This document shows, in pieces, positions 3,101 through 51,384 of a stretch of DNA of 64,000 nt (position 1 is its first letter; every line of letters begins with the position of its first letter). The position numbers and the translations under genes were made by a program. Origin of the DNA: Naegleria gruberi (lineage: Eukaryota); assembly GCA_000004985.1 (NCBI GenBank), contig GG738916.1; one strand, written 5' to 3'. Under the pieces are notes generated by a model. It searched no databases and was not told the DNA's origin. It saw only the letters and a program-made list of their open reading frames with translations.

Positions 3101-3388
3101 CTTGTTGGGGATGTGATTTGTTTTTTTTCTTCAATCATTTCAATGTAAAAGTTGAAATGTGGAAAGTTAAAGTTCCAGATTAGAATAACCGTACATTGCG
3201 GCCTTAGAAAACCGCTCCAAATTAGTAAGATTCAATGATTGAACATGATTGAATGGCTTAGCACAGCATGTGTCTCCGCCAAGTTTTTAACTTGAGGAAA
3301 ACTAAGGAAGTCTTTGAATTTCAATGCTATTAAAAATAGCAGTGTTAAGAGAGAGCAGTACTTCAAAGAAAGAGATTAAAATGCTAAA

Positions 3389-3477
3389 AGGCGACTGAGG
3401 GAATTGAACCCTCGACCCTCAGTTATCTCAGCATTTCTGCCTACAAGACTGATGCACTGCCACTGTGCTAAGCCGCC
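3389..3477 (-). tRNA. tRNA-Thr (anticodon UGU) with a 17-nt intron between positions 37 and 38
   Basis: Antisense sequence GGCGGCTTAGCACAGTGGCAGTGCATCAGTCTTGTA[GGCAGAAATGCTGAGAT]AACTGAGGGTCGAGGGTTCAATTCCCTCAGTCGCCT. Acceptor 7 bp (GGCGGCT/AGTCGCC, one G-U). D-stem GCAC/GTGC. Anticodon stem TCAGT/ACTGA with loop CTTGTAA. T-arm GAGGG-TTCAATT-CCCTC. The insert sits exactly at the canonical nuclear intron position. Confidence 0.8.
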
Positions 3478-3610
3478 TTACGAAGATTTTATATACAACA
3501 TTTTATGTCGATGTTATGTTCTTTAGAAAATCTACAACCACCTTCATCAATCCACCAATAATTATTTTCAAATGTTGGTTGTAGTGGAATGACTTGTTGG
3601 ATAAAATTTA

Positions 3611-6600
3611 TTATTCATAAACCTCAGCAAATTCAGTAGCACTTCTTCCAAATATTTCAGGAGTGTACATTTCCTCTGCCTTTACACTAGGAATCACAAA
3701 TGAACCAATGGATGTTGCTCTGGCAATATATGTGAATTGATGAGTGCCTTCCCATAATAGTGAAGTAAATGCTTCGACTCTTTCATCTCTAATGTTGTGA
3801 TGTTCGTACCAGATTGGATTAATCCACCAACACCAAGAATTTGGTTTGTTGGTTTTACTTCCATTGAGAGAGGAAATCTCTGGAGTTCCTTTCAATTCTG
3901 GATTGATTGGTTCGAGACCAGCTGGTAAATAGTCAACTAAGGCAACATGATATCTACGACTGGTATTTGTCATGGTCAACTTGACACGAATCAATTCTCC
4001 AGCTTTAAATCTCCAAGTATTCTTTTCCTTATCAAATGAAACATGAGAAGAATCAGTAACATGTTCATAGGTTCTTTGAACTTCAAATCCATAATCCAAT
4101 GCATCAACAAGTAAATTCTTTGGTGCATATTCCATTCCAATTCTGTAATATAATCTTCCAGGACCTTGCTTTGAGATGGCAAGAGTCTTTTTTTCATATT
4201 CCAACAAACTCATTGGAATATTTAATTGATTTTCATCCTTGGATCTTCCCTTGAACACTTGTTCTCCACAATAATCTTCACCCAACCACATGTTGGCCAC
4301 AAAATCTGGTGTCACACCTTCGAAAACATTAAAATAGGTATTGAGAGCAAGAAGAATGAAAACGTTTTCTTGAGTATTTCCCCAACGACCCTTCTTTTTG
4401 TGAGCTAGCAATCCCTTAACAATCTTTGGAATGAGATAATTGTTAGGAGTAATATTAATAAGAGCTTCTAAACAAATTCCGTCAGTTCTTCTGTCACTAT
4501 GTAACATGACATGTTTAGTTGACAGTACATCACCATAACTTGTAATAAAGTTGGCAGTTTGTGCAGTTTCATTAACATGCTTATTCAAATGTTCAATGAT
4601 TTGATTGGCTGAGGCGGTAGCTCTATTATTATTAGATAAATACATGGCAGTGGCCAACCAAGCTAAATGTTCAAAGTTTCCATTCAATTTGTAGGTTTGG
4701 TAATGTTTTTCAGCTAAATTCTTGACCTGAGAATCACCCAACAAAGCCAAAGCATAATATGCATAAGCCTTGGTAGATTTAATAGATTCCTCAGAATAAT
4801 CAAGTTCAATACAATAATTTTCAATACTTCTCAATACTGGAATTAATTTTGAGAGGGTTCCTTCATTCACTGAATATCCTGCAATCTTGGCACGTCCAAG
4901 CATGTGGCCAACATGGCAGGTCACATATGGACTGATACGATAATTATTATTATAGGACCAGTATCCAAATCCACCATTTGGAAATTGTCTTGCTTCTAAG
5001 GCAGTAAGAGCATGTTTGATATTATTATCGATTGCTTCCTTACTAGGAATTTGTTGTGAATTGAATGCAAGAAGAATGTCTTTCAAAGAAATAATGGAAA
5101 GTAATCTGCTGGAAATTTGTTCACTGCATTCGTATGGATAATTGTACAAGTATAAGAAACTGTCAGTGAGTGAAGAAAGTGCAGTAGAGCTAGTAGAAAT
5201 CTTTAAGCCTCCAAATTGAGTGAAAACATTTGGAGGAGCCTTAACAGGTTGGAAAACAGAAGAATCTCCATCCATTTCACCATAAGTGGCAAATGCTTCA
5301 GTAGTGGCAGGTGTAAATACTCTAATTTCCTTTTCAATGGCATCAGAAAAGTTAATTCCGATTGTGGCAATCGACACACCAATTTGGAATCGTGCAATAC
5401 CAACTCTATCGGTTGACATTGGGAATCTCAATTCAGTTCTTCCTAAAGCTGGAATCCTAATCTTGAGGCCCTTCTTTGACTCATCCAACAAGTTCAAATT
5501 GGTAAAATTGATAGCTGCATTTACCTCCAAATTCAATTGAGTTTGATTTTGTAAAACACATGTAAATTCTACTCTATCACCAAAGTTCAAGAATCGAGGA
5601 AGAGATGGCCTAATTGACAATGGAAGTTGAGCTATCATGGAAGATTCATGAATTCCAAAATTCCAATCACCCTTAACAGCAACTGCTGTGATTCTATATT
5701 TTGTAAGATTGTCAGGTATCTTGAATTTTACACTTGTGAATCCTTCTGCATTTGTCTTACTAGATGGACTAAAGATTGCCAATGGATTGAAATTTGATCT
5801 CACTGCAATCATTGGTTGTTCAGGTACTGGCATACCAGCAAATGCTGCACTACCAAACGCAAAGCCACCATACGATTGGACTGAAGGAGAAAATGGATCA
5901 GATGCTGGCATTTGTTGCATTTGCATTTGCATCGGATAACTATGATGATTATGAGAAAATGAAAAACCTGAGTTAGTAAGAGAAGTTCCAAACAGGGAAT
6001 TGGTGGTGGTATAAGTTTGCTCCTCTTGGAATATTATTCCCTGATAGCTCTTTACAAATACATTATTTCTGAGAGAGTAAGGTTGATAAGTAGTGTTGTA
6101 TGGTGTAACAAAGGTATCTAGTGGATTACTGATGGAGTAGTTGGTGAGAGAGAGTACAGCTTCGTCCACAGCAATGATACACACTTCACATCCTTCTTGT
6201 GGAGCTCCAGTCATTGGATCCTTAACTAGTACACTGATACTGGTTTCACTTCCAGGTGTCAAATATTCTCTTTCAGGTTTAGATTCCACAGATAAGCTTC
6301 TTGAATTTTTTGAAACCTCAATATCACAAGAACCTGATGAAAAAGCAGGTTGCTTTGGTAAATCTAAAACAGTGCCCGTGGCATCTACTCTTGATTCAGA
6401 ACCTGAGAGTTCAACACTTACTTTAACATTTGGAATGTGATCTAGAGTAATTCCAAGCTCAAATTCTGTATAACCAAGATCAGCATCAATTTGAATTGGA
6501 TATTGACGATGAATTCCATGAAGTTGTGTAAACAGTACGCCTTCAGCTTTGGAATCAAATGGAGATTGAATCAGAATCTTGGCCTTTTCTCCAACTTGAT

Positions 6601-9521
6601 ATTCTTTCTTATCTGTAAGAAGAGTGAGTTGTTTCTTCCCTATCAAAACTTCTCTTGCAGAAAATCCAGTGATAAATAAACTTGTTGATGCTTTGTTTGT
6701 TTGTCCTGTAGCAGAATCAACAATACCAATAGAAAATGAATAGTTGCCACCTTTTTCAAATTTGACAGAATATTCAATTGGTTCATTTTCCGATATGAAA
6801 ACCTTATCAATAACTTCAACAGTTTCAGAAGCATATTTGTATCCTTTCTTGACATTCACTTGAGTAGTGACTTTCAATTGGATTGGTATTCCTGAAACCA
6901 AATTTCCGTCAATATCTGTAACAATCAAAGAGGCAGTTATAGGAACATTTTGTTTTGCAAATTCTCGACTCAACTTGATTCCACAATAATATTTGCAAGG
7001 GTGAACGAGGAAGGATGCTGATGATGTCATTGTTTGTCTATTGATATCTTGAACTGTAGATTCTACAGAAATGGTGATTGGAGCCTTCTTTACACGATTA
7101 CTCTCCTCAAATGCAATTGCAATTTGGTGTTCTCCATCACCATCTGTTGTACCTTCAAAGGTTGTAACACCAACATTTGAGTTGGCCGAGAAAAGTTGCT
7201 TTACAAAGTCGTTTCCAAAGAAATTGAGAGACGTTCCAAAAGTGTATGAGGATTGATTTGGAGGAGTGTAGCTGCTGGTAGTTTGTTTGATAGTGTATCT
7301 GCATTTGGCTCCTGAAATTCCACCTCCACTATAGTAATCTGCATTGGTTGTGCAGATGGCAGATCCACCAACAATGTAATTTCCAGGTGATACTGAAGAT
7401 TTTGATTTGAACTCTGGAGTTCTAAATTCTTGAACCTTGAATGCGTGATTTGATGAAAAATCAGAGAACATAATTGTGTGACTTCCCAAGTTGGCATTAT
7501 CTGGAACTTTGAATTGAATATTAAATGTACCATCAGAGCTTAATTGTACTTTGCCTGATTCGTATCGTTGTTGTCTGGCATCTAAAATTGTGTAAGTGGA
7601 AGAATTTGTTGGAATATCAATGCTAAAAACATTTCCTTTCAAATTAAATCTTCTTACGTAACCCTTAATAGAGACAGTCTCACCTGGCTTGTACAATCCT
7701 CTATCATTGAAAATATGGGCAGTTATTTGAGGAGTAAACGCATTTCTGGCATAATATACATCTGGAATGAAACATGTGTCATGTCCATGAGTTGCTATGG
7801 CATTCAAAGAGCAGGAACCATAACTATTTCCAGAAATATTTTTAATACAACCAATTCCAGTTTTTGCATCTGGTGAACTTGTTGTATGATTATTAAAGTG
7901 GAAGGTCACATTGTCCTTAATAATACTGCCATCAATTAAGGAATTTACCCAATAGTAGGCAATTGAAGAGTTATTATCAATAACGCAATCAACTGCAATC
8001 TTCGTTGTTTGAATCCATGAAACATAACCAGGTCGAGTGTTCCATGAAGCTTTCCAGCTATTCATTTCAGCTTCAACAACCACCAACAATTGGCCAATGC
8101 TCTCAGATGGATACTGAAGATATTCTTGAAGATTAATTTCAGTTTCGACTGGTTCGTCAACTTCTCCCTTTGTTGATATGATTCCATCATAAACTAGAGT
8201 GCCAGGATATTTAATGGTAGCGTCTGTTTGGAATCTGAGTACTGAATGATTGAACATCGTGGATGGATTGACCTGGTAAACCCTGCAACGTACAGCATCC
8301 AAATTTACAGTTACAATAGGATAAGATGGACTTGGATTCAATGTTGGATCCATAACAATAACACCGGTTTTGAATGCTTGGATTGATTGGCGTGCACCTT
8401 TAACTTGAAATTCTACAGTAAGGTCTTTAAGCACTTGCCCCCAAACATCGACAAGATTCTTTACGAAAACCTTGTATGTTGTTCTTCCTTTGATTTTACC
8501 TGAGATGCTAATACTATTTCCAAATGGATTTAATGACATCCGTTCAATTGGTGGTGAAACAGTGAACATATTTTCTGTCAATTTTTCCAAATCAATGCCA
8601 GTTGTGAATTGCAAACTAAAAGCTTGCATTGGGAGCTCTCCTCCATACTTTTTGATAAACTCGAACGCAGGATAATTATTTACAGTGGTGATATGAGAAT
8701 GTAGTGTTGGCAATGGTCCTTCTGTTCCTGTAACTCCGCTCATGATACTCACCTTTACAGAGTTTCCAAAAAGATAATTACTAACATGGAACCACAAATG
8801 TCGTTTCTCTGGAGCATTTTTGAGTTTTCGTTTGTAAGCTTCATAAGTATGATAATCCCTCTTCTCCAAGTCGAAATCTTTGAGTGCTTTGAGGATGAAC
8901 TCCTGTACGAGAGGATTTGAACTCTTGCCGTCATGAATTAAGGTGGCTAAATTACTATTCTCATTAATTGAAATGAATTTGATAACTTCACTTGGATCAA
9001 TGTCTTGATCGAATTCTAAATAGTAAATTGGAACTTCATTCAGAGGATGAATAGTGTGATCAGAAGGAAGGGAGCTGATTAAAGATAATCTTGGAGTTTC
9101 AAAACTAAATGTCAAATCTTCTTTCAAAATTCCTCCAATTTCTGATTTGGTTCCCTTCTTAACAGTGACTGTATACTTGGTGGACATGTCAAATCTGTAT
9201 TTGGCTGCGTAAACTAGAGTTTTTGTGCCCAACCATTTGAATTGACCTCCTTTTTTTGGAAGAGGAGAAACATCCACTGGAACTGTATCCATTACTTCAT
9301 CAATACTGCTGACAGGAACCATCGGTTGAGAGAAGGTAATAGTGATCGATGGCACTGAACGATCCAACACACCTTCAGGCGAATAACGAATCACACTCAA
9401 CTCTGATCCTAAAATCTTTTCCTCCTCTTCAATCAATTCTTTTGGTTTCTCCAAATTCATTTCCGGTGGAAAGGGTACATTATTGATCTCTGCAGTAATT
9501 GGTGCTTTCAACGATTTTTCT
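3611..9521 (-). CDS. Alpha-2-macroglobulin family thioester-containing protein of bacterial type. Intronless, about 1970 aa, with no ATG of its own.
   Basis: Thioester-region motif YNYPYECSEQ is CxEQ type, not the metazoan GCGEQ. The N-terminal Ig-like module has ITFSQPMVPV. The A2M_comp-like segment has ARQFPNGGFGYWS. The C-terminal module DERVEAF...YIARATSIGSFVIPSVKAEEMYTPEIFGRSATE resembles the last domain of bacterial A2Ms. The track's M at 9511 is actually TTG (plus strand 9509-9511 = caa). The frame is open upstream only to a TGA at about 9536. There is no ATG and no signal peptide. Confidence 0.6.
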
Positions 9522-19301: not shown

Positions 19302-20279
19302 ATGTTAAAGTCAAATATCAAAGTATTGCTCATTGCTTGTTTGTTGGCAGCTCTAATGTTAGCAATGAATGTAAAGGCCATTGAAGAGGAAATTATTGTA
19401 GAGAAGGAAGGTGATACAGCATCTACTGATTCCACCACTCCACAAGTTGGGACTAAACCAAAAGAAACTAAACCAGCTCCAACCAAACAACAAAACGAAA
19501 CTCCACAAGCCCCACCACAACTCAAGAGAACACACGGTCGTAGAAACTTACATCAAGATCACTCTGAACAAAGAGCCTTAAGAGACTTGATGAGAGAAAT
19601 GAGAAACTACCAATTCGGTTCAGATTTATTCGATTTCCATCATCCAAGATCCAATTTCTTCCTCAATTCCTTCCTCCCAAGAACATCCCTCTTTGGAAAT
19701 AGCTTACTTGGTGATGATTTCAGTGACATGTTCCTCAATTTTGATAGTTCTTTTGAAATGATGAGAAGAAGAATGAATAACATGTGGAAGAGATCCTTCT
19801 TACCATCATTATTCGATGAAAATCATCAATTTTTGGAAAATTACTTGAATTCCCAAAGAATGAATCAATTGGATCAAGAAAAATCTCAAAAAGTTGAAAC
19901 TCCAATTAAGGAAGAACCAAAGCCAATTGTTGAAAAGAAGAAGAGAGAACCAATTTCATCTCTCATCAAAACTGAAACCTTGGAAGATGGTAAATTACAA
20001 TACGCCTTGGATATCAATAATATTCCAAGAGATGTCTTTGAAAAGAAGGATATTGAAATTAAGGTGAGTGAAAACTCAAATGGTGAGCTAGTCACTGTCA
20101 GAGCTGAAAAGAAAACTGAGAATGGACATTTTGAATTTTCCAAGTCTTTTAGATTTCCAAAGGGCTCTGTTGATTTTGAAAAGGTGAAAGCCTCTCTTTC
20201 AGATGCAGGAACTTTGAGTGTGAAAATTCCAAGAATTGACCCAGTTCCAGAAAGAATCAAATCAATTAATGTTGAATAA
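19302..20279 (+). CDS. Secreted or ER-targeted small heat-shock protein (alpha-crystallin / Hsp20 domain)
   Basis: Signal peptide MLKSNIKVLLIACLLAALMLAMNVKA. Alpha-crystallin-domain (ACD) pattern at the C-terminus: YALDINNIPRDVFEKKDIEIKVSENSNGELVTVRAEKKTENGHFEFSKSFRFPKGSVDFEKVKASLSDAGTLSVKIPR. Strong C-ending codon preference (ttc, ctc, tcc, aac). Confidence 0.6.
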   Translation: MLKSNIKVLLIACLLAALMLAMNVKAIEEEIIVEKEGDTASTDSTTPQVGTKPKETKPAPTKQQNETPQAPPQLKRTHGRRNLHQDHSEQRALRDLMREMRNYQFGSDLFDFHHPRSNFFLNSFLPRTSLFGNSLLGDDFSDMFLNFDSSFEMMRRRMNNMWKRSFLPSLFDENHQFLENYLNSQRMNQLDQEKSQKVETPIKEEPKPIVEKKKREPISSLIKTETLEDGKLQYALDINNIPRDVFEKKDIEIKVSENSNGELVTVRAEKKTENGHFEFSKSFRFPKGSVDFEKVKASLSDAGTLSVKIPRIDPVPERIKSINVE

Positions 20280-20324: not shown

Positions 20325-21344
20325 CTACTCTTCAAAATCTACCAATTCTGCTTCAACACTTAATTTCTCTTTGTAGTGTAAATGGGCATACTCGAATACC
20401 AATCTTTCTTCTTCTTCACCTATATCGTCCTTGTTGAAATCTATCAAGTTTGGTGCATCATGTTTGACAACTTCGAAAACAATTTGCTTATCTTTTCTCA
20501 GTTGATTGGGTAAATAATAAAAAACCCTTCTACATTGTTTAACAGCTGCTAGGGCAACCTCTCTATCATTTAATAGTTCTTCAGAAGCAAAAATAATATT
20601 CATTCCATTTGATTTAACATATTCCAAAACTATTTCCTTATCATTTTTAACTAGAAATAAGAATTCTAAATTTGAGTTTTGACGAAGAGCTTCTAATATG
20701 AATTCTCTGTCGTTTTTTAGTTGATCAGAACAATATTGAAGTGCGTTTCCATTAATCTTGACAGCTTTCAGAGCTAGTTCTCTATCATTTCTCAATTCTT
20801 TAGAAGCATATGCGAATACGTTACTTCCATATTTCTCAACAAGTGGCAAAACAAATGATTTCCTTCTCCACAAGTCCAAAAACGTTGGAATTTTGTAAAA
20901 TCTTGAACAAGAGCAAGGATGAAAAATTGAACAGGTAGTGCAGAAATTATTTGGCGTAAATAAATCCATAAATCGTCTTGTAAAGTATTCGCCATCCCTC
21001 TCCCAATTCGAAACTAAACGAGAACTTTCATAATAATTAATCGAACAGTTCACCACCCCGACTACAGGAAAATACAATGTCGGTTGAATTAGTAATTCCC
21101 ACTTGTGTTTTGATGGTAAATCTCTAATTTGACAAATTAATAGATCGGAAGCAAAATTCAAATCCAAATACAACACCACCCCATCTGGTAAACAACAATT
21201 AATTTCATCATTATTCGCACCATCATCATTAGAAGAAGACATAATTTCATGATTGTACAGATGGTGATGATTTAAATTCCTCCGTTTTGAATCTGAATAA
21301 TAACCGGCAGAAGAATAAGAATTTTCAAAACAACTTCTTTTCAT
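20325..21344 (-). CDS. DUF4116 repeat-containing protein
   Basis: Tandem repeats of the form ASKELRNDRELALKAVKINGNALQYCSDQLKNDREFILEALRQN and ASEELLNDREVALAAVKQ match the DUF4116 repeat (LxxDxEvvlaAVkqnG.aL.yas). 339 aa in one exon. Confidence 0.6.
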   Translation of the reverse strand: MKRSCFENSYSSAGYYSDSKRRNLNHHHLYNHEIMSSSNDDGANNDEINCCLPDGVVLYLDLNFASDLLICQIRDLPSKHKWELLIQPTLYFPVVGVVNCSINYYESSRLVSNWERDGEYFTRRFMDLFTPNNFCTTCSIFHPCSCSRFYKIPTFLDLWRRKSFVLPLVEKYGSNVFAYASKELRNDRELALKAVKINGNALQYCSDQLKNDREFILEALRQNSNLEFLFLVKNDKEIVLEYVKSNGMNIIFASEELLNDREVALAAVKQCRRVFYYLPNQLRKDKQIVFEVVKHDAPNLIDFNKDDIGEEEERLVFEYAHLHYKEKLSVEAELVDFEE

Positions 21345-21395
21345 TTTTTTGTTATTTGTTACAATAATAAAATTGTGGCCATTGGACAGAGTATT
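21171..21395 (-). repeat. Copy 1 of a ~225-bp duplicated segment (promoter plus first ~58 codons of the DUF4116 gene)
   Basis: Roughly 85% identical, with two short indels, to 24351-24545. The shared block begins at CAACACCACCCCA and ends near AATAATAAA.TG.GGCCA. Confidence 0.8.
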
Positions 21396-22082
21396 CTCTC
21401 CAGATGAAATTTGGATGCAAGACTTTACCTGGTTTACTAATCGTGGAACATTTTCTCAATTACCAAATTTCTAGTCCTTTGGTCAACAATATCGAACACA
21501 ACCTCCAAACCAAAAGCAGTTTTGCATACTTACGAAATATTAATTAAGAATACTATTATTAATCATAGCGTGTATGATTTACGTTCCATAATCATGGCAT
21601 GTCTTGAAATCTACTCCGTGTAAAATTTGTAATTCATTCAGCATTTGACTTAGATGTTGTTCAACAGTTTCAGCATCTTTGTGCTTTATTGGATTGACCC
21701 AAAGATACTTTGTGAATGCTTCAATCACCAAAAGGTATCCAACATAACCTTTGATTTTGAAACAAGAGCTATATCCATGGAGAAGCATGGCCTTGTACCA
21801 CATGTCATTTCATATTTAAACTTAATTACAATCTCAAATCAATATATCAATGAAAATTAACGTTGGAATTTAACCGAACTAGATCATGCATGATGGTTGG
21901 CAACAATCAAAAATGTTATGTCCTTAGTTATGTCTTATAAACGTAACCGCAACTGCTTTGGAAATGACAATCATTTAAAGGAGGGCTAAATGGAAGGTAT
22001 GTCAAAATAAGTCAAGTAATCAATCTCTCACTAATTAACCGTGATAAATGATTCTAAAATACTATGAGACACGGCTAAATGG

Positions 22083-24305
22083 ATGAAAAGAAGTCTCGTG
22101 GCAGGTCTTTCAATAAGCACGTATTGTGAAAGATGTGCTACAAAAAAAATGAAATACTTAGTTCATCTATTGTTTCTAATAGTTTTGTTGCTTTCACTTG
22201 TTCGGTCAACTTGTTGTGTGGAAAGTAATGGGACTATGACTTCTATTCAAAGCTATTATAATCAAATAGATCCTTCATATACTGTTGTCTATCCTTCATC
22301 ATTTATCAAGGCAATCATGTGGAAGGATAATCCCAATCTCGTTTCATATAATTTAACAGACAAGAATAGTATTCTAAACATGCTAAAACAACATGCTATT
22401 ACACAAACTCTTCAAATAGGATTTGTTTCCTACGGTTTCGAAGGTAGTAATACCAAACAATTCTTAAAAGACTTCTTAACATTTCATCAACTGGAAAGTG
22501 TTGCTCCATTCATTTCACATAGATACTTTTTCCATGGTACATGTCAACCCAATTTATTTGATCTATTTGATGTCATCTTGATAAGTAGTGAATTATTTCC
22601 TTTGGCAATACGGTCTCATCGAAGTGGAAATAGAAAACATGGACTGTATTCAGCAAGTGACTTTGTGTCAGTTTATTTAGAACCATTTAGAGTATTTCAA
22701 TCTTCCTCTGGTGTTGCTTTGAATTTTCGTAATCATTCCCACGAAATATTCTGTAATGAAACTATTCCTTTAAACAGTATTTTGATAGCATATGAAGGGG
22801 AAATTGAAAGCTACTTTCGAATATTGAATGGTGAAAACAACACACTGTTTTCAGAAAGTGAAGTATTGTTTCTGAATCGTTTCAATTCTTTTGCAGTTCC
22901 ATATTTAATTTCTCAAAATATTTCAAATCAATTGAAAGAGAGCATTGTGAATTTCTATAATATTTCACCAAATTCCACTTATTTGTCTTTCCTTTTTCCT
23001 GAATGTACCGTCTGTCAAAAAGATTTTTGCGAAGATTTTTTTATTGAAGATTATTGGTTTATTCCAGTAGCAGTGCTAACAATCTTTCATTATCTTGTAT
23101 TATTCATTTCTGGAGCGTTTAAAAGTCCAGCTTTGAAAATTAGATTGTTAGTTCCATATTTGTTGCCTTTGGGATCTCTCTATTTTGAAACACAATACAG
23201 TCCTATGATAGCCAATGTTTGTCCATTTGTTAGAATTATATTTGTAGGGTATATAATTACATGGTTCACTATTACATATGGATTTACAATTTTCAGATTT
23301 TACTATTTGAGAAACTTATATCATATTATCTCAATTAAGAATGTGGAATCAACAAATAAGAAAATAGCCTTTCAAAGAAAGATTTCAAGACCCTTTTGGG
23401 GTATTTTATTGACTGTAGGAATGGCTTTGATTGCTACTTTAATTCTGGGTTCTCCTTTTCTTGTTATTGTTGATACTTCAATTTCAGCTGAATTTGGTTT
23501 TTTATCAAATCTATTATATGCAATAGTTATTGGAATAGGTTGTGTAATTGGTGGAATTGCCATCATTATTGACGTGATTTTTAATAGAAAAATATTGAAA
23601 GAGAAGGGACTGAATTATTATCTCTTTTTTGATGATCCATTCTTGATTCGTTTAGAATTATTCACTCTTTCCTTAACAATTATATTCATGGTAATTTGCT
23701 ATTTTGGAAACTATTATATCTTCAAGGTTTCCATATTAATAATCTATTGTTTGGTAATTATGAGCTCTGGCTTTCTAGCAAGTTTCAAACACATATTGAC
23801 CAAGTTCATGAATAGAAAGAAGAAAGAGATCTCAAATTTGGAAATTTATTTGAACAATGATTCTTTTAAACACATGTTAAGAGAATATTGTATTAAGGAA
23901 ATGTCACTTGAAAATTACAAATGTTACATGAGTTTGGAACAATTTAAAATGAAGAAAGACAAAGTGATTGATTTGGAATTAATGAAACAATTCGAAACGG
24001 ATTACATTTCGTTAAATTCAATTTATGAAGTCAATATTCCATCAAATGTGAGAAAATCATTTTATGAATTGATGAAACAAGTGGAAAGTTCGCATTCTCA
24101 ATTGTGTGAAATGGCTGAGGATGGAAATGATTTCCAACAAGCAACAAATTCTCAAAACATGCCAATCTATTCGAATCTTATAGAACTATTGAGTGTTCAT
24201 TTACTTACAAATTTGGGAGATACTCTTTCAAGATTAGAAACAACAAAAGAATATAAAGTTTGGCAACAACTTTATGAGATTCAATCCAAATCTGCTGTTA
24301 TTTAA
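22083..24305 (+). CDS. Seven-transmembrane receptor-like protein with a C-terminal RGS domain
   Basis: Signal peptide, Cys-containing N-terminal ectodomain of about 300 aa, a block of seven hydrophobic helices (about residues 320-560), then SFKHMLREYCIKEMSLENYKCYMSLEQFK...SFYELMKQ, which fits the RGS-domain N-terminal consensus (F..FL..EFS.ENL.FW...E.F). Confidence 0.5.
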   Translation: MKRSLVAGLSISTYCERCATKKMKYLVHLLFLIVLLLSLVRSTCCVESNGTMTSIQSYYNQIDPSYTVVYPSSFIKAIMWKDNPNLVSYNLTDKNSILNMLKQHAITQTLQIGFVSYGFEGSNTKQFLKDFLTFHQLESVAPFISHRYFFHGTCQPNLFDLFDVILISSELFPLAIRSHRSGNRKHGLYSASDFVSVYLEPFRVFQSSSGVALNFRNHSHEIFCNETIPLNSILIAYEGEIESYFRILNGENNTLFSESEVLFLNRFNSFAVPYLISQNISNQLKESIVNFYNISPNSTYLSFLFPECTVCQKDFCEDFFIEDYWFIPVAVLTIFHYLVLFISGAFKSPALKIRLLVPYLLPLGSLYFETQYSPMIANVCPFVRIIFVGYIITWFTITYGFTIFRFYYLRNLYHIISIKNVESTNKKIAFQRKISRPFWGILLTVGMALIATLILGSPFLVIVDTSISAEFGFLSNLLYAIVIGIGCVIGGIAIIIDVIFNRKILKEKGLNYYLFFDDPFLIRLELFTLSLTIIFMVICYFGNYYIFKVSILIIYCLVIMSSGFLASFKHILTKFMNRKKKEISNLEIYLNNDSFKHMLREYCIKEMSLENYKCYMSLEQFKMKKDKVIDLELMKQFETDYISLNSIYEVNIPSNVRKSFYELMKQVESSHSQLCEMAEDGNDFQQATNSQNMPIYSNLIELLSVHLLTNLGDTLSRLETTKEYKVWQQLYEIQSKSAVI

Positions 24306-24350
24306 TTCAAAATAAACTGTATTATGGCCTTTCACTATATTTATTATATA

Positions 24351-24545
24351 CAACACCACCCCAGCTTGTAAACAACAATTAATTTCGCGTCATCATCATT
24401 AGAAGAAGAAATAATTTCATGATTGTACGGATGGTGATGATTTAAATTCCTCCGTTTTTAATATGAATAATAGACGAATTTTCACAACTGCTTCTTTTCA
24501 TTTTTTTGTAATTTATTACAATAATAAACTGCGGCCACTATATAA
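24351..24545 (-). pseudogene. Degenerate duplicate of the DUF4116 gene 5' end (copy 2), non-coding
   Basis: Aligns to 21171-21395. Read on the minus strand it begins MKRS.. like the parent gene, then hits a stop within about 20 codons because of indels. It lies in the spacer between the 7TM-RGS gene and the PPPDE-like gene. Confidence 0.6.
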
Positions 24546-24647
24546 GAATACAATAATATTAATAGATTCCGTGATGAGGAAAATTATATTGATGATGATC
24601 ATCATGAAATTCTAAAAAAAAATATATTAAGGCACAAATATTTTTAT

Positions 24648-25976
24648 ATGAGTAGTTGTACTAAGAGCAGCAACAGCAGCGAGAATCAAATGATTGTCTA
24701 TGCAAAGATTAAAAAGAATAAGCACTTGAATAAGGCATGTACAAGAACAGATCCGGAAAAAGTAGAAGAGGTGATGAAGAATTTTGCCTCAATTCTCTCC
24801 GATCCTCAATTATTGAAAAAGGAGTACTTTCAGACAGATTGGGCACAGAGTGTTATTAATGCCATTCAGGACTATTCAAAGATGTGCCTCTCACCTTGTA
24901 CTAGAGGATCATCGTTGGCTATGAAAAGGAAAAAGGGAATTTTCGAGAGAATGTCATCGAGGAGTACGGAGGAAGATCAGGAACAAAAGGAGTACTACTC
25001 TATTAATTCTGTTAGTTCTATTGAATTAGACTTGGATGATGAAGAAGAGGAAGAAGAGGATGAGTTGAATACAATTGAACATTTGGAAATTCAAAAGTCG
25101 TTAATGAATAGAGACAAGTTGAGAGTCAAGATTATTGTAACAGAAATTACAGATTCTGCAGGAACTAAGGCTATTAGACAAATTCTCAGCCCTCTCTTAT
25201 CAAAAACCAAATTTTTACCTGATATGGGAATGTTTCACTCTGCAATAATGGTAGGTCCGTGGAAATTGGAATGGAACGACTCGGGTCTGTGTATTCCTAA
25301 ACAACTTGTATCAACAAATGCCTTAATTGCGTGCGACCTTACTGAAGACATGACTCTCACTGGATCGAATATAGATGAAATTGCTGGAAATCTTGTTGAT
25401 ATTATTATCAAGTGGAATACCACTGTAGAATATGAGAGTGTTGGAGGAGATGGAGTGAAAAGTGGAAACTGTCAACAATTTGTGGATGCTGTTTTAGAAA
25501 CTATTGGAATTAATAAGAGTAATATTTATAAAGGAGCTATGGGAAGTTATTTTGAAAGATTAAAAAAGAAAGGAAAGGGAAATATGAAATTTGTACTGGA
25601 GGAAGGTAAGTTTATTGAAACAATGAAAGTTTATCTGTGTTGTATCTTCGTTTTAGAATTTAAAAAGAGGTTTAACATTCCAACGACTCAAAAATCTGTT
25701 AAATTTAAAACTCACTGTGAATTGGATCAGTTTGTTTTACAGCTTTTAGATATTGATCCATTGGCAGATAAAAATTACCCAAATGAATTCAAATTACTGA
25801 AATCATTTGATCGTGCCTTTTGGTTGAGACACTTGTCAGGTAAAAAATCAATGGCTGATCCAAGGTGGCAACCCTATCGTGAAGAGGAACCATCTTTTGA
25901 TGGAGTTGCACTGGTATTGAAATGTCATTTTGGAGATCCAAGAGAAAGGTTCTCATTTGTATATGAATCAAAATAA
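24648..25976 (+). CDS. PPPDE/DeSI-like (DUF862) thiol-peptidase-fold protein, putative
   Basis: Candidate catalytic His context MFHSAIMVGPWKLEWNDSGLCIP and Cys context GVKSGNCQQFVDAVLETIG resemble the H...NCNHF pattern of permuted-papain-fold PPPDE peptidases. Acidic E-rich linker. True ATG at 24648. Confidence 0.35.
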   Translation: MSSCTKSSNSSENQMIVYAKIKKNKHLNKACTRTDPEKVEEVMKNFASILSDPQLLKKEYFQTDWAQSVINAIQDYSKMCLSPCTRGSSLAMKRKKGIFERMSSRSTEEDQEQKEYYSINSVSSIELDLDDEEEEEEDELNTIEHLEIQKSLMNRDKLRVKIIVTEITDSAGTKAIRQILSPLLSKTKFLPDMGMFHSAIMVGPWKLEWNDSGLCIPKQLVSTNALIACDLTEDMTLTGSNIDEIAGNLVDIIIKWNTTVEYESVGGDGVKSGNCQQFVDAVLETIGINKSNIYKGAMGSYFERLKKKGKGNMKFVLEEGKFIETMKVYLCCIFVLEFKKRFNIPTTQKSVKFKTHCELDQFVLQLLDIDPLADKNYPNEFKLLKSFDRAFWLRHLSGKKSMADPRWQPYREEEPSFDGVALVLKCHFGDPRERFSFVYESK

Positions 25977-40361: not shown

Positions 40362-42464
40362 ATGAAAAATAATTCGCACGACCATCAACATCATCATCAC
40401 GAAGGATGCTCGCACGATCATCATCATCACCACGATGAGAATTGTACTCATGATCATGACCATCAACATCATCATCATGAAGGATGTTCGCATGATCATC
40501 ATCACCATGACGAAAATTGTTCTCATGAACATCATCATCATCACGATGAGAATTGTAGTCATGATCACGACCATGACCATCATCATCATGAAGGTTGCTC
40601 CCACGATCACGGACATCATCATCATCACCATCATGAAGGCTGTAATCATGATCACGATCATGGACATCACCATCATGAAATTCAAATTTTACCATACGCC
40701 AATGAAAAGAATAATAAGAAACATGTCAAAACCTTCTCCCCACTCATGTTGGCATGTTTACAGAATGATACAGCAACAGCATTGTCGCTTTCATCACCAG
40801 AAACAGTCAATGATAGATCAATTGATAATTTCACTGCTCTTCATTTTGCCATGATGAATGGTAATATCGCTCTAGTAGAAAGATTAGTAAAGGATGGTGC
40901 TAGACTTGATAAACGTACTATTACACATGATGGTATGACTCCTCTCATATTTGCTATCAAGGAAAGCCACTATGAATGTGTTAAAAAGTTTTTGGAATGT
41001 GCTAAATTAAAGTTGGAAGAAAATAGTGAATTACAAGAAGGTAAACTCACTATTCAAAAACTTGTCAACCAAGGAAACTTATTAGGAGAAACTCCACTTC
41101 ATCACGTCTGTAAATTGTTTATGCAAATCCCACATGCTCTCCATTTAGCTACCATTCTTATCGATTATGGAGCAAATGTAAATGCCACAGCTGTAGGTCT
41201 TTTAAAGGAGACTCCTCTTTTATATTTTGCTCGTTCCGTTCCTCCTGAAAGTGTCCTTCCAATGATGCAAAATGTTTCTCCCCACGTTTCTGCCCAATTT
41301 AAGAAATTTACTCAACTTTTCGAAACTCACAAGGCAACTTGTATCGAAGAACCAGCACCTGAAACTCCACTCTTACTTTTGGGAACTACTATACCGAAAG
41401 TTATTGTCCCTCCAGGTGTTCCTTCTCAATTATATGCCAACCATAGAGATAGTGCTAACAGAAAGTTGGAAACTGATTACGGAGGTGCCTATTGGAGTTA
41501 TGGCTGTATTGAACCATTCTACCATGGTAAGAAACCAAGAGTTAACATGGCTGTTGATGTCTACATTCCATTCACCAAACCACAAAAAGGTCTTACTGCT
41601 ACCACATTTAATGGATTCATTCATACTATTAATTATGCCAATCCAGAAAAGCCATCCAGAAGATATGAAGATATGGTTGATTTGGAAACTGGTAAGCGTT
41701 TGTCATTTGTTGCTACTTGTACTTTGAATATGAATCATGAGAAATTATCGGATATCTTCCCATCTCAAATGGAAGTCACTATTGAATGGAATCCAGAACA
41801 TAGCAGACATAATCCATGGGTTGTCACCAGAATTTTCGAACATTCTGATGAAAGTAACTCACTTCTTCAATTGGCTCAAGCTGCTTTTGTTTATGAACTT
41901 GAAAATGGTAGATCTGTACTTCCAAACTCAAAGCCACGTCGTTGTACCATGATCAAAGGATTGGAAGATCAACACGGCTCACATAACCACAAGATTCCTG
42001 CTCGTCTTCTTCTTGGAGTTGAAATGTTTAGTCCATATAAGTTTGTTGCTTTCAAATATGCTCCTGATGAATATGATAGTGAAGCTGATGTTCAGCTTAC
42101 TGATGAAACTGGTTTCAACAACATGTTAGGTCAATTAGTTCAAACAAGTGCCGAATTATTGAGACGAGGAAAACCACAATTGGATATCAAAATTGATGGA
42201 AAACTTTTGAATGTGAAAGAAATGATTGAAAATCAATTAAAGAAGAGAATGGAAAAAACTCTCAAAGCCACCCCACCAGCTGTCCAAGAAAAACCAAAAA
42301 CTCCAACTGTTGACAAGTGTGCCAACTGCAACAAGACAGGAACCAAGTCAGCACCTTTGAAGAGATGTTCAGGTTGCCAAAAAGTTTTCTATTGCTCTGG
42401 AAATTGTCAAAAGACACATTGGAGCTCCCACAAGACCGCATGTAAAAAATCAGTAACCAAATAA
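40362..42464 (+). CDS. His-rich / ankyrin-repeat / MYND zinc-finger protein
   Basis: N-terminal ~110 aa of (H)n-E-G/N-C-S/T-H-D-H repeats. Ankyrin repeats (TALHFAMMNGNIALVERLVKDGARLD, GMTPLIFAIKESHYECVKKFLE, GETPLHHVCK, ALHLATILIDYGANVNA). C-terminal MYND finger CANCNKTGTKSAPLKRCSGCQKVFYCSGNCQKTHWSSHKTAC. Confidence 0.6.
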   Translation: MKNNSHDHQHHHHEGCSHDHHHHHDENCTHDHDHQHHHHEGCSHDHHHHDENCSHEHHHHHDENCSHDHDHDHHHHEGCSHDHGHHHHHHHEGCNHDHDHGHHHHEIQILPYANEKNNKKHVKTFSPLMLACLQNDTATALSLSSPETVNDRSIDNFTALHFAMMNGNIALVERLVKDGARLDKRTITHDGMTPLIFAIKESHYECVKKFLECAKLKLEENSELQEGKLTIQKLVNQGNLLGETPLHHVCKLFMQIPHALHLATILIDYGANVNATAVGLLKETPLLYFARSVPPESVLPMMQNVSPHVSAQFKKFTQLFETHKATCIEEPAPETPLLLLGTTIPKVIVPPGVPSQLYANHRDSANRKLETDYGGAYWSYGCIEPFYHGKKPRVNMAVDVYIPFTKPQKGLTATTFNGFIHTINYANPEKPSRRYEDMVDLETGKRLSFVATCTLNMNHEKLSDIFPSQMEVTIEWNPEHSRHNPWVVTRIFEHSDESNSLLQLAQAAFVYELENGRSVLPNSKPRRCTMIKGLEDQHGSHNHKIPARLLLGVEMFSPYKFVAFKYAPDEYDSEADVQLTDETGFNNMLGQLVQTSAELLRRGKPQLDIKIDGKLLNVKEMIENQLKKRMEKTLKATPPAVQEKPKTPTVDKCANCNKTGTKSAPLKRCSGCQKVFYCSGNCQKTHWSSHKTACKKSVTK

Positions 42465-49683: not shown

Positions 49684-51384
49684 CTAATTCTGATTTTCTC
49701 TCAAGAATCTTGAAATATCCGAATTGGCTTGAGTCAAACGATGCATTACATCAGATAAATCCTGAATACAATGCAATTCCAATCCATCAAATAGAGTGGA
49801 GGGTAAATTCTCATCTCCACACTTTTCAATTTCAATCATTAGGTCAGAACGTGCTTTCTCAATGGATGCCATATTCAATTCAAGAGGAGAATTCAAAGAA
49901 ATATAATTATCAATAATAAATTTGGCAATTTCCTTTCGATTTTTGACTTGTTGTGGAGATTTGTATCTTTGAATATCTTGCCAACAAAGTACAGGTTCAG
50001 GACAATAGGATCTTCTCGCAAAATCCAATAAAATATTGAATGTCTTTCTGTTTTTCAGAACTAGCTCTGCACCACTTATCACTTCCTTTTTTGATTCCTC
50101 TACTGAAACTGATTTCAAATTATTCCAAGCAATTTTCAATTCCTGATTGAGTTCATAACAAACAGGCAATAGTACACACACAACAGTCTCCAAAGAAAGT
50201 GCTGTGCACATAAAGAGCAAATAGGGCACATAATAATCGATCAATGATCCAACAATTGGTATAAAACCAGCTACAATAAAAGCTCCCATTCCAATCGATT
50301 GAATCACCACATAAATCAATGATTCCTTCTTAATATTCCATGTATCTCTATCTGATCTGATACATAAAATCAATGTAAATACCTCCATGGCAATATAAAT
50401 AATTGCCTCTGTCAAGATTATTCCAAGAATACTACTAGTCATGATACATCCATAACCAGACTCAAAGAAACCAGCTGGAATGAGAGCTCTTTTTGCTGAA
50501 GGATCTGTTTTCTTATTGATTGTGTAGACAATTTCATCAATTCCACCAACAATGGCCCATAAAATAGTTTGAAATACGAAAACTCCCAAATAAACCAAAA
50601 TGACGAAAGAGTGACTGCCCATAAATTGGAAGAATTTCATTTTCCTCAGTTCTTTCATTGGAATTTCAATCTCACGATTGGAAATGGATTCTTTTGCATC
50701 TATGAAAACAACTTCATTAGTACTGGTTGAGGATTGTAAACTTGTTGGTGTGTCCAGTGGTGTATCCACAGGTGTGGCTGATTTTGGAGATGAAGAAGTG
50801 GTTGAAATTGAAGAATGAAACAATTCTTGATGTGGCATTCTAATAGTTGATGGTAATTCCTTTTCGTCTACATTACTCTGCTCATCCAAATGTCCATAAA
50901 GTTTCGTCTTTTGTAAATTAAACTTGTACATGAAATACAACTTTAAACATCGACAAATTGTCGGCAAACAAATCACAGGTCCAGTTACAAAGAAACACCA
51001 AGAATAAAGCGAACAAGGAAATTGCTTTCGTCCAATAATTATTCGAAGGCAAAATATTGCCACAAAGAATAAACCTGAAAACATGGTCAAGAAGAGATGT
51101 GATAAATTTCTCGCAACAACATGTCCTGAATTTCTCTTCCACAAAATCAATATCGAAGTGACAACCAATAAGCTTACATATAATATTAGAAAGGTCAACA
51201 CGACACCAAACGAAACTGTTGTATCAGGACAAATATCGTAATCTTGATTGGGATTGGCTTCTCGGCTGTATGGTGTTGTGAAGAGTGTTGGATCGCAAAA
51301 AGTTGAATTATTGCTGCTCGACGAGTTATTCGATTGTGATTCGTATAGAATGTGAAGAATCGAATAAAAGAGTTGATCTGTCAT
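49684..51384 (-). CDS. Seven-transmembrane receptor-like protein with C-terminal RGS domain (second in window)
   Basis: N-terminal glycosylation-rich segment, seven hydrophobic helices, then KTFNILLDFARRSYCPEPVLCWQDIQRYK...AKFIIDNYISLNSPLELNMASIEKARSDLM, which matches the RGS fold consensus. Confidence 0.5.
   Translation of the reverse strand: MTDQLFYSILHILYESQSNNSSSSNNSTFCDPTLFTTPYSREANPNQDYDICPDTTVSFGVVLTFLILYVSLLVVTSILILWKRNSGHVVARNLSHLFLTMFSGLFFVAIFCLRIIIGRKQFPCSLYSWCFFVTGPVICLPTICRCLKLYFMYKFNLQKTKLYGHLDEQSNVDEKELPSTIRMPHQELFHSSISTTSSSPKSATPVDTPLDTPTSLQSSTSTNEVVFIDAKESISNREIEIPMKELRKMKFFQFMGSHSFVILVYLGVFVFQTILWAIVGGIDEIVYTINKKTDPSAKRALIPAGFFESGYGCIMTSSILGIILTEAIIYIAMEVFTLILCIRSDRDTWNIKKESLIYVVIQSIGMGAFIVAGFIPIVGSLIDYYVPYLLFMCTALSLETVVCVLLPVCYELNQELKIAWNNLKSVSVEESKKEVISGAELVLKNRKTFNILLDFARRSYCPEPVLCWQDIQRYKSPQQVKNRKEIAKFIIDNYISLNSPLELNMASIEKARSDLMIEIEKCGDENLPSTLFDGLELHCIQDLSDVMHRLTQANSDISRFLRENQN

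What the first reader, a model, noticed from the sequence alone, without database searches (positions are those of the whole stretch)
21171..24545. Local segmental duplication of a gene's promoter and 5' coding end
About 225 bp covering the start codon and first ~58 codons of the DUF4116 gene plus ~50 bp upstream (21171-21395) recur at 24351-24545. The copies are in the same orientation, roughly 85% identical, with two short indels. The second copy is non-coding, with an early stop. The copy sits immediately upstream of the plus-strand PPPDE-like gene (ATG at 24648), so a duplicated promoter fragment could now contribute to that gene's 5' region.
Basis: seen in the sequence. Interest (0 to 1): 0.5.

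Follow-up and report, generated by a model that had tools for sequence, protein, structure and literature searches.

The report
Dead duplicate of a gene start
A ~200-bp piece holding the start of an unannotated Naegleria gruberi DUF4116 gene was copied 3.2 kb downstream long ago and has since decayed into a non-coding relic; this is an ordinary trace of genome repair with no sign of function.

Summary
The repeat is real. Window 21168-21381 (214 bp) recurs in the same orientation at 24348-24537 (190 bp). Identity is 92% over ungapped columns and 81% counting gaps, with three indels (10, about 14 and 1 nt) and BLASTN E about 1e-56. It is the only dispersed repeat in the 64-kb window.

The window is Naegleria gruberi NEG-M. 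Copy 1 holds 37 bp of 5' leader, the ATG and 59 codons of a minus-strand DUF4116 ORF. That ORF looks coding but is missing from the reference proteome. Copy 2 is frameshifted, stops after 19 codons, and 9 of its 11 coding differences are non-synonymous, so it is a decaying gene-fragment pseudogene.

Copy 2 fills 190 of the 342 bp between an RGS-like membrane gene and a gene with a PPPDE-like fold. It points away from that gene. Only 37 bp upstream of the ATG were copied, so calling it a duplicated promoter is unproven.

The copies differ about nine times more than NEG-M differs from a sister strain, so the event is old.

A decayed retrotransposon integrase relic lies between the copies. The repeats are not LTRs, not a retrocopy and not an assembly artefact.

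The finding is ordinary and of low interest.

The parts
21168..21381 (-). Copy 1, the parental copy. It holds 37 bp of 5' leader (21345-21381), the ATG at 21344 and the first 59 codons of the DUF4116 ORF.
   Evidence: Alignments. An in-frame TAA lies 6 codons upstream of the ATG, and the ATG has the A-run start context. The codon-usage score of the 59 codons is 0.19, against an in-frame mean of 0.23 (sd 0.11); only 0.5% of off-frame windows score that high.
24348..24537 (-). Copy 2, a degenerate non-coding duplicate. The former ATG is at 24501, and there is a stop after 19 codons.
   Evidence: It carries 15 substitutions and three indels (net 23 nt missing in the coding part). Nine of the 11 coding differences are non-synonymous, one of which creates a stop. 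The longest identical run is 29 nt. All three frames score as non-coding.
20325..21344 (-). Parent ORF of 339 aa, with four DUF4116 repeats in the C-terminal half and an N-terminal 170 aa without homologues.
   Evidence: Pfam DUF4116 E = 1.9e-47. The best database homologues are 37-42% identical, cover only the repeat half, and none is identical, so the ORF is absent from the reference proteome. The N-terminal 170 aa have no Pfam hit at E <= 10.
21382..21506 (.). Spacer between copy 1 and the stretch shared with the sister-strain contig. The breakpoint of a strain difference lies at about 21470-21491.
   Evidence: L002 aligns to 21507-23265 at 98.35%. Homology can be traced to about 21491 and is then lost.
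21579..21803 (-). Decayed integrase-core (rve) relic of a Ty3/gypsy-type retroelement, lying between the two copies.
   Evidence: Pfam rve is only E = 0.13. A phmmer search of 1.8 billion representatives gives hits at E = 6e-7 to 3e-4. Four of these carry Pfam rve, and P0095 and P0097 also carry Integrase_H2C2. The second catalytic Asp position reads Glu, and stops follow the fragment.
22149..24305 (+). RGS-like multi-pass membrane protein gene, the main content of the 2966-bp segment between the copies.
   Evidence: Weak Pfam RGS hit. It is 100% identical to the N. gruberi predicted protein P0091, and the nearest paralogue P0092 is only 49% identical. The start at 22149 is supported by the A-run context and by frame-breaking indels at 22093-22122 in the sister strain.
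24538..24647 (+). A 110-bp AT-rich spacer (20% GC) between copy 2 and the ATG of the downstream gene.
24648..25976 (+). Gene with a PPPDE-like fold, head-to-head with copy 2.

Best explanation
Copy 2 is a non-functional, non-processed pseudogene fragment. A single DNA-level event copied about 214 bp (5' leader, ATG and 59 codons of the DUF4116 ORF) from 3.2 kb away into the short spacer between the RGS-like gene and the PPPDE-like gene. The most likely mechanism is templated or ectopic fill-in synthesis during repair of a chromosome break there. This happened well before N. gruberi NEG-M split from a sister strain. Since then copy 2 has drifted neutrally: it has point substitutions, two microhomology-flanked deletions, a frameshift and a stop. 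Today it is only spacer DNA, making up 55% of that intergenic region. What is shown: the duplication, its extent, the disablement of copy 2, the lack of coding constraint, its relative age and its uniqueness in the window. What is inferred: the repair mechanism, the direction of copying (copy 1 to copy 2), and the absence of function.
For: The two-copy repeat is highly significant, and no other dispersed repeat exists in the 64 kb. Homology spans both coding and upstream non-coding sequence and ends inside the ORF at codon 59, which is the signature of a DNA-level partial gene copy. Copy 1 keeps an open frame with typical codon usage, while copy 2 scores as non-coding in every frame. The coding differences fall at codon positions 1/2/3 in the ratio 2/6/3, and 9 of 11 are non-synonymous, including a TCA to TAA change. 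The net 23-nt length difference in the coding part breaks the frame. The 14-nt gap lies between TTATT direct repeats, as expected for slippage deletion (read directly from the alignment). The copies differ by 15 substitutions in 189 sites (7.9%). NEG-M differs from the sister-strain contig L002 by 0.9% in non-coding and 1.1% in coding DNA. The event is therefore roughly nine times older than the strain split, and the longest identical run of 29 nt argues against recent gene conversion. The intervening RGS-like gene is not a recent import, because its nearest paralogue is only 49% identical. There is no assembly gap near either copy, and no Rfam family matches the region.
Against: No genome with or without copy 2 could be examined. 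N. fowleri has no synteny here, and exact-word scans of three public DNA collections found nothing. The ancestral state and the direction of the event are therefore inferred, not observed. The final A-B-A layout is equally what an insertion of the 3-kb middle segment with a long target duplication would leave. Junction microhomology is minimal (2 nt, 'AT', at the left junction) and blurred by 8% divergence. Absence of function rests on decay of the reading frame only; a role as non-coding DNA cannot be excluded. The sister-strain contig loses homology about 100 bp from copy 1, so the local history includes at least one more event that is not understood.
Confidence: 0.65

Rival explanations
1. 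Insertion model. DUF4116 (minus strand) and the PPPDE-like gene (plus strand) were originally head-to-head neighbours 146 bp apart. The 2966-bp block 21382-24347 (integrase relic plus RGS-like gene) was inserted into the 5' end of DUF4116 at a staggered break, and fill-in duplicated 214 bp of target on both sides. Copy 1 stayed attached to the gene body and copy 2 to the old intergenic region. Copy 2 is still a neutral relic under this model.
For: The layout is exactly A-B-A, with unrelated sequence outside the repeats. The implied ancestral intergenic distance of 146 bp is plausible for this compact genome. A transposon relic sits at the left end of the block. In a sister strain the relic plus RGS-like block has a different left neighbour, which shows that this block's left junction is structurally labile.
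Against: A 214-bp target duplication is far longer than transposase or integrase target-site duplications. The block is mostly an old host gene, 49% identical to its closest paralogue, not a mobile element. If the insertion had happened after the strain split, as the L002 difference alone would suggest, the flanking copies should differ by about 1% or less, not by 7.9% plus three indels. About 90-125 bp between copy 1 and the L002 breakpoint remain unaccounted for.
Confidence: 0.2
2. One reading: the duplicated 5' fragment has been co-opted as part of the promoter or 5' regulatory region of the PPPDE-like gene, for example as a bidirectional core promoter.
For: Copy 2 occupies 190 of the 342 bp between the RGS-like stop codon and the ATG at 24648, and ends 110 bp from that ATG. 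In so compact a genome any regulatory DNA of that gene must lie in or next to copy 2.
Against: Only 37 bp upstream of the parental ATG were copied, and much of the similarity there is the generic A-run start context. The fragment is oriented away from the PPPDE-like gene. It has decayed at a rate compatible with neutrality, with no long conserved block. The N. fowleri orthologue has unrelated upstream neighbours and no such fragment. No expression data are available.
Confidence: 0.08
3. The two repeats are the long terminal repeats of a decayed LTR retrotransposon, of which the integrase relic between them is a remnant.
For: Direct repeats of about 200 bp flank a 3-kb segment. A Ty3/gypsy-type integrase-core relic lies near one repeat, on the strand and at the end expected for a pol gene whose 3' end faces copy 1.
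Against: The repeats lack TG...CA termini. The flanks (..TCCAA and CTATA..) show no target-site duplication. The DUF4116 reading frame runs straight through the inner edge of copy 1 with normal codon usage on both sides. Most of the interior is an intact host gene on the opposite strand. There are no further copies in the window or in the public collections scanned.
Confidence: 0.02
4. Assembly artefact: an allelic or haplotype fragment of the DUF4116 5' end was mis-placed in the draft assembly.
For: The window comes from the N. gruberi NEG-M assembly and contains one assembly gap, at 865-914.
Against: Both copies lie in gap-free sequence far from the only N run. Copy 2 is embedded seamlessly between two annotated genes. 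The 8% divergence and three indels are far more than the roughly 1% seen even between strains.
Confidence: 0.03

Closest known systems
Non-processed (duplicated) pseudogene fragments, also called 'gene relics', as catalogued in yeasts, plants and animals (from my own knowledge)
   Same: It is a DNA-level copy that includes non-coding upstream sequence. It is truncated inside the coding region, disabled by a frameshift and a stop, lies close to the parent, and evolves without coding constraint.
   Different: It is very short (190 bp, the 5' end only) and lies in a compact protist genome where intergenic DNA is scarce. No population or comparative data are available.
Templated insertions or 'filler DNA' at repaired double-strand breaks, that is synthesis-dependent or microhomology-mediated copying of nearby sequence, known from plants, Drosophila, yeast and human genomes (from my own knowledge)
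   Same: It is a single patch of a few hundred bp copied in direct orientation from a donor a few kb away on the same chromosome. The insertion lies in an intergenic spacer and is not associated with a mobile element.
   Different: The mechanism is inferred only. The junctions show at most 2 nt of microhomology, and their original state is blurred by about 8% divergence.
Segmental duplications (low-copy repeats of at least 1 kb and at least 90% identity)
   Same: There are two copies on the same chromosome, in the same orientation, at about 92% identity.
   Different: It is five times shorter than the conventional length threshold and contains no complete gene.
LTR retrotransposon with flanking long terminal repeats
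   Same: Direct repeats of about 200 bp enclose about 3 kb that contains an integrase-core relic.
   Different: It has no TG..CA ends, no target-site duplication and no gag or reverse-transcriptase sequence. The interior holds a host gene on the opposite strand, and one repeat is the start of a host reading frame.

Membership tests
Non-processed pseudogene fragment (partial gene duplicate) | Significant nucleotide homology to a parent gene that extends into its non-coding flank | tested here: met
   The alignment has 214 columns, E = 1e-56, and covers 37 bp upstream of the ATG plus 59 codons.
Non-processed pseudogene fragment (partial gene duplicate) | Disabling lesions and loss of coding constraint in the copy, while the parent frame stays open | tested here: met
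   Copy 2 has a stop after 19 codons and a net 23-nt deletion, and 9 of 11 coding differences are non-synonymous. The parent frame is open and coding-like, whereas copy 2 scores as non-coding in all frames.
Non-processed pseudogene fragment (partial gene duplicate) | The parent is a real, expressed gene | tested here: inconclusive
   The 339-aa ORF has strong DUF4116 repeats, coding codon usage and the genome's typical start context. However, it has no entry in the reference proteome, and no transcript data were available.
Segmental duplication (conventional definition) | Length of at least 1 kb | tested here: not met
   The copies are 214 and 190 bp, and no similarity extends beyond them.
Segmental duplication (conventional definition) | Identity of at least 90% | tested here: met
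   Identity is 92% over ungapped columns and 81% if gap columns are counted.
Processed pseudogene (retrocopy) | Derived from mRNA: 3'-biased, with a poly(A) tract at the 3' end and flanking target-site duplications | tested here: not met
   The copy holds only the 5' end (codons 1-59). No T or A run adjoins its 3' edge at 24330-24347, and there are no flanking direct repeats.
LTR retrotransposon (repeats as LTRs) | TG...CA termini and a 4-6 bp target-site duplication outside the LTR pair | tested here: not met
   On the strand of the integrase relic the unit begins TGGCC and ends ...TTGTAT. The flanks TCCAA and CTATA differ.
LTR retrotransposon (repeats as LTRs) | Internal gag-pol region between the LTRs | tested here: not met
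   Only a decayed integrase-core relic of about 75 aa is present. The rest is an intact host RGS-like gene on the other strand.
Dispersed repeat or MITE family | Many copies, terminal inverted repeats and short target-site duplications | tested here: inconclusive
   There are two copies only in 64 kb, no inverted termini, and a 28-mer shared by both copies is absent from three public DNA collections. The rest of the 41-Mb N. gruberi genome could not be searched.
Duplicated promoter or regulatory module | The copied segment contains the parent gene's promoter and drives transcription at the new site | not testable with these tools
   Only 37 bp upstream of the ATG are copied. The A-run is a generic start context. 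No transcript or transcription-start data are available.
PPPDE / DeSI (Peptidase_C97) family, for the neighbouring gene at 24648 | Sequence match to the Pfam family model | tested here: not met
   There is no Pfam hit even at E <= 10, either for the window protein or for its N. fowleri orthologue. A PDB profile search also found nothing significant.
PPPDE / DeSI (Peptidase_C97) family, for the neighbouring gene at 24648 | Permuted papain-like fold with a conserved His and Cys pair | tested here: met

The most novel reading that the evidence does not exclude
Copy 2 is not inert. A plus-strand transcript running through it would be the RGS-like gene's read-through 3' UTR or a long 5' UTR of the PPPDE-like gene. 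Such a transcript would be 92% complementary to the first 180 nt of the DUF4116 mRNA, including its start codon. It could therefore act as a trans natural antisense RNA or small-RNA source that couples DUF4116 expression to its neighbours. Alternatively, the fragment could serve as a bidirectional core promoter for the PPPDE-like gene.
Probability: 0.06. Interest if true: 0.4.

Novelty: new member of a known kind. Interest (0 to 1): 0.14.

Why it matters
It matters little. It is a clean small example of how even a compact, gene-dense protist genome picks up and slowly loses short gene-fragment duplicates. It also marks an intergenic neighbourhood with a retroelement relic and a strain-specific breakpoint that has been rearranged more than once. 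The practical gains are for annotation. The parental DUF4116 ORF appears to be missing from the N. gruberi reference gene set. The RGS-like gene's true start, with its signal peptide, is at 22149. The neighbouring gene belongs to a family with a PPPDE-like fold that Pfam does not recognise. If copy 2 turned out to be transcribed, it would be a simple model of a pseudogene fragment acting on its parent gene, but nothing here suggests that.

Tried and rejected
(1) Exact look-ups of the three flanking proteins and of several small ORFs in public assemblies returned nothing useful; N. gruberi contigs are not in that index.

(2) The N. fowleri orthologous locus shares only the PPPDE-like gene, so there is no synteny to use as an outgroup.

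(3) Exact-word scans with a 28-mer shared by both copies in the metagenome, prokaryotic-genome and viral collections gave 0 hits. A wobble-tolerant pattern from the PPPDE-like gene in JGI metagenomes also gave 0 hits.

(4) The LTR-pair idea was raised by the integrase relic and rejected on termini, target-site duplication, interior content and the continuous reading frame.

(5) A recent import of the middle block was rejected. The nearest RGS-like paralogue is only 49% identical, and the copies are much more diverged than the strains are.

(6) The 280-bp strain-specific part of contig L002 could not be identified as integrase or anything else. The Logan contig from the same run stops, with adapter sequence, before the junction.

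(7) Rfam, tRNA and tandem-repeat scans of the region found nothing relevant.

(8) The N-terminal 170 aa of the DUF4116 ORF have no Pfam match, so the F-box-like look of residues about 50-90 could not be confirmed.

(9) Literature searches found no paper linking Naegleria with DUF4116 and none naming the metagenome project PRJEB11402. [quoted passage not shown]
Full report
OBSERVATION

The sequence at the stated coordinates was read and searched for repeats in three ways.
- The seed-and-extend repeat finder returns three collinear direct-repeat blocks (39 nt at 95%, 89 nt at 93%, 53 nt at 91%). Their start-to-start spacings are 3180, 3170 and 3157, meaning one repeat interrupted by two indels.
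- BLASTN of either copy against the whole window gives a single 214-column alignment, 21168-21381 against 24348-24537. Identity is 80.8% including 24 gap columns, and E is about 1e-56.
- A Smith-Waterman alignment gives 174 matches in 215 columns, which is 92% over the 189 ungapped columns. The gaps are 10 nt, about 14 nt (complex) and 1 nt.

A self-BLAST of all 64 kb shows that this is the only dispersed repeat in the window. The only other hits are a coding tandem array at 40377-40679. The only assembly gap is at 865-914.

WHERE WE ARE

The window is Naegleria gruberi NEG-M.
- ORF 19302-20279 is exactly XP_002670334.1.
- The RGS-like ORF is 100% identical to the N. gruberi protein P0091.
- The gene at 24648 is identical to P0057 apart from the model's start and a 17-aa modelled intron.
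- The other ORFs are typical eukaryotic genes: Kelch, RCC1, F-box, SNARE, P-type ATPase.

ANATOMY

Copy 1 lies on the minus strand at the head of a 339-aa ORF (20325-21344). The C-terminal half of this ORF has four DUF4116 repeats (Pfam E = 1.9e-47). Several lines bear on whether the ORF is a real gene.
- The ATG at 21344 is the first possible start, because an in-frame TAA lies six codons upstream.
- The ATG carries the A-run context seen before most starts in this window.
- The 59 duplicated codons have a codon-usage score of 0.19. This is typical of true coding windows (mean 0.23, sd 0.11), and only 0.5% of off-frame windows reach it.
- Yet the protein database holds no identical or near-identical entry; the best hit is 42% identical and covers the repeat half only. 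The 'gene' is therefore an ORF missing from the reference annotation.

Copy 2, read on the same strand, starts MKRSSCENSSIIHIKNGGI*, shifts frame twice, and scores as non-coding in all frames. Of the 11 substitutions in the coding part, 2, 6 and 3 fall at codon positions 1, 2 and 3. Nine are non-synonymous and one makes a stop. Four more substitutions lie in the 37-bp leader, and the longest identical run is 29 nt. The 14-nt gap is bounded by TTATT direct repeats, as slippage deletions are (read).

The 2966 bp between the copies contain two features.
- A decayed integrase-core relic on the minus strand (21579-21803). Pfam rve is only E = 0.13. An exhaustive phmmer search gives hits at E = 6e-7 to 3e-4. 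Four of them carry Pfam rve, and two (P0095, P0097) also carry Integrase_H2C2.
- An RGS-like multi-pass membrane gene. Its closest paralogue is only 49% identical.

Copy 2 fills 190 of the 342 bp between that gene's stop (24305) and the ATG at 24648.

THE NEIGHBOUR

Pfam sees nothing in the gene at 24648, even at E <= 10. Structure-based evidence does point to a PPPDE-like fold.
- A 27-sequence alignment shows invariant His197 and Cys275.
- The AlphaFold model has pTM 0.70.

COMPARATIVE EVIDENCE

The N. fowleri orthologous locus shares only that one gene. Scans of the public collections found no other copy.

The integrase relic led to a 2062-bp metagenome contig (L002, ENA run ERR1078381) from a sister strain. 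It matches window 21507-23265 at 98.35%, with 0.9% substitutions in non-coding DNA and 1.1% in coding DNA. Two consequences follow.
- First, the two copies differ by 7.9%, about nine times the strain divergence. The duplication is therefore much older than the strain split, and there has been no recent gene conversion.
- Second, homology between L002 and the window stops at about 21470-21491, only 90-110 bp from copy 1. The remaining 280 bp of L002 match nothing in the window and nothing recognisable. This is either a later strain-specific rearrangement beside copy 1 or a chimeric contig. The Logan contig of the same run does not reach the junction. This point remains unexplained.

INTERPRETATION

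Homology crosses the ATG into non-coding DNA and ends inside the ORF. Copy 2 is therefore a DNA-level partial gene duplicate.
- It is not a retrocopy: it holds the 5' end only and has no poly(A).
- The repeats are not LTRs. They have no TG..CA ends and no target-site duplication. A host gene on the other strand fills the interior. The DUF4116 frame runs through the inner edge of copy 1 with normal codon usage.
- It is not an assembly artefact: the sequence is gap-free and the copies are too diverged.

Two single-event histories give the same A-B-A layout.
- (a) A 214-bp patch was copied from 3.2 kb away into a break between the RGS-like and PPPDE-like genes (templated repair).
- (b) The 3-kb block was inserted into the DUF4116 5' end with a 214-bp target duplication.

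I prefer (a), for three reasons. The block is an old host gene rather than a mobile element. A 214-bp target duplication would be unusual. And a late insertion, which is the version that would explain L002 in one step, is contradicted by the divergence of the copies. I cannot exclude (b). Either way copy 2 has decayed like neutral DNA.

THE 'PROMOTER' READING

Only 37 bp upstream of the ATG were copied, and part of that similarity is the generic A-run. The fragment points away from the PPPDE-like gene, towards the 3' end of the RGS-like gene. A regulatory contribution is possible only as a bidirectional element or as spacer DNA, and it is untested. The most novel reading left open is that plus-strand transcripts through copy 2 act as antisense to the DUF4116 mRNA start. 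I give this and the promoter co-option reading together about 6%.

VERDICT

This is a real but ordinary short gene-fragment duplication that has decayed into a pseudogene relic. It is a new instance of a well-known kind and of low interest. The by-products are annotation corrections for three genes, a retroelement relic, and an unresolved strain-specific breakpoint.

Noticed in passing
window 20325-21344 (-): The 339-aa DUF4116 ORF has coding-like codon usage and the typical start context, but no identical entry among 5.8 billion database proteins, which do include the N. gruberi reference proteins of its neighbours. It is probably a gene missed by the reference annotation.
   Followed up: partly
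window 21579-21803 (-), possibly extending to about 21430-21830: A decayed Ty3/gypsy-type integrase-core (rve) relic sits in the 800-bp intergenic region. The second catalytic Asp position reads Glu, and stops follow. A sister strain keeps it at 96% amino-acid identity.
   Followed up: yes
window about 21470-21491; locus L002 (reverse complement) 1-305: A metagenome contig from a sister strain about 1% diverged is collinear with 21507-23265. It then loses all similarity about 100 bp short of copy 1. Its 280-bp specific part holds an unidentified 78-aa ORF. This is either a strain-specific rearrangement or a chimeric contig.
   Followed up: partly
window 22083-22160 (+): The real start of the RGS-like gene is probably the ATG at 22149. 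It has the A-run context and opens a signal-peptide-like MKYLVHLLFLIVLLLSLV. The sister strain has frame-breaking indels at 22093-22122, upstream of it. The reference model (689 aa) starts further downstream, at Met52 of the long ORF, and so lacks the signal peptide.
   Followed up: partly
window 24648-25976 (+): The reference model of this gene starts 42 codons too late, since the N. fowleri orthologue aligns from residue 7. The model also removes a 51-nt intron. The protein belongs to a family found in Naegleria, Willaertia, Acrasis, a transcriptome labelled 'Percolo...' and unidentified metagenome sequences. Pfam does not recognise this family, but it has a PPPDE-like fold with invariant His197 and Cys275.
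   Followed up: yes
window 49684-51384 (-): A second RGS-domain gene lies in the window. It is only 26% identical to the first over the RGS region, so it is not a recent duplicate.
   Followed up: partly
window 40377-40679: Imperfect tandem repeats (about 69-77% identity, units of roughly 80-110 bp) lie where several ORFs overlap on both strands, at the start of the ankyrin/zf-MYND gene.
   Followed up: no
window 58968-58998: A 31-nt, 90% match to 21309-21339 (inside copy 1) lies within the 2OG-Fe(II) oxygenase ORF. BLAST E is 3e-6, but the sequence is A/G-rich and of low complexity, so this is probably chance.
   Followed up: no
window 3611-9511 (-): A 1966-aa alpha-2-macroglobulin ORF carries the bacterial-type MG10 and Big_5 domains. 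It is a candidate for bacterial ancestry in a eukaryotic genome.
   Followed up: no
window 3388-3478 (-) and 865-914: The tRNA-Thr(TGT) call is 91 nt long and may contain an intron. A 50-N assembly gap lies at 865-914.
   Followed up: no
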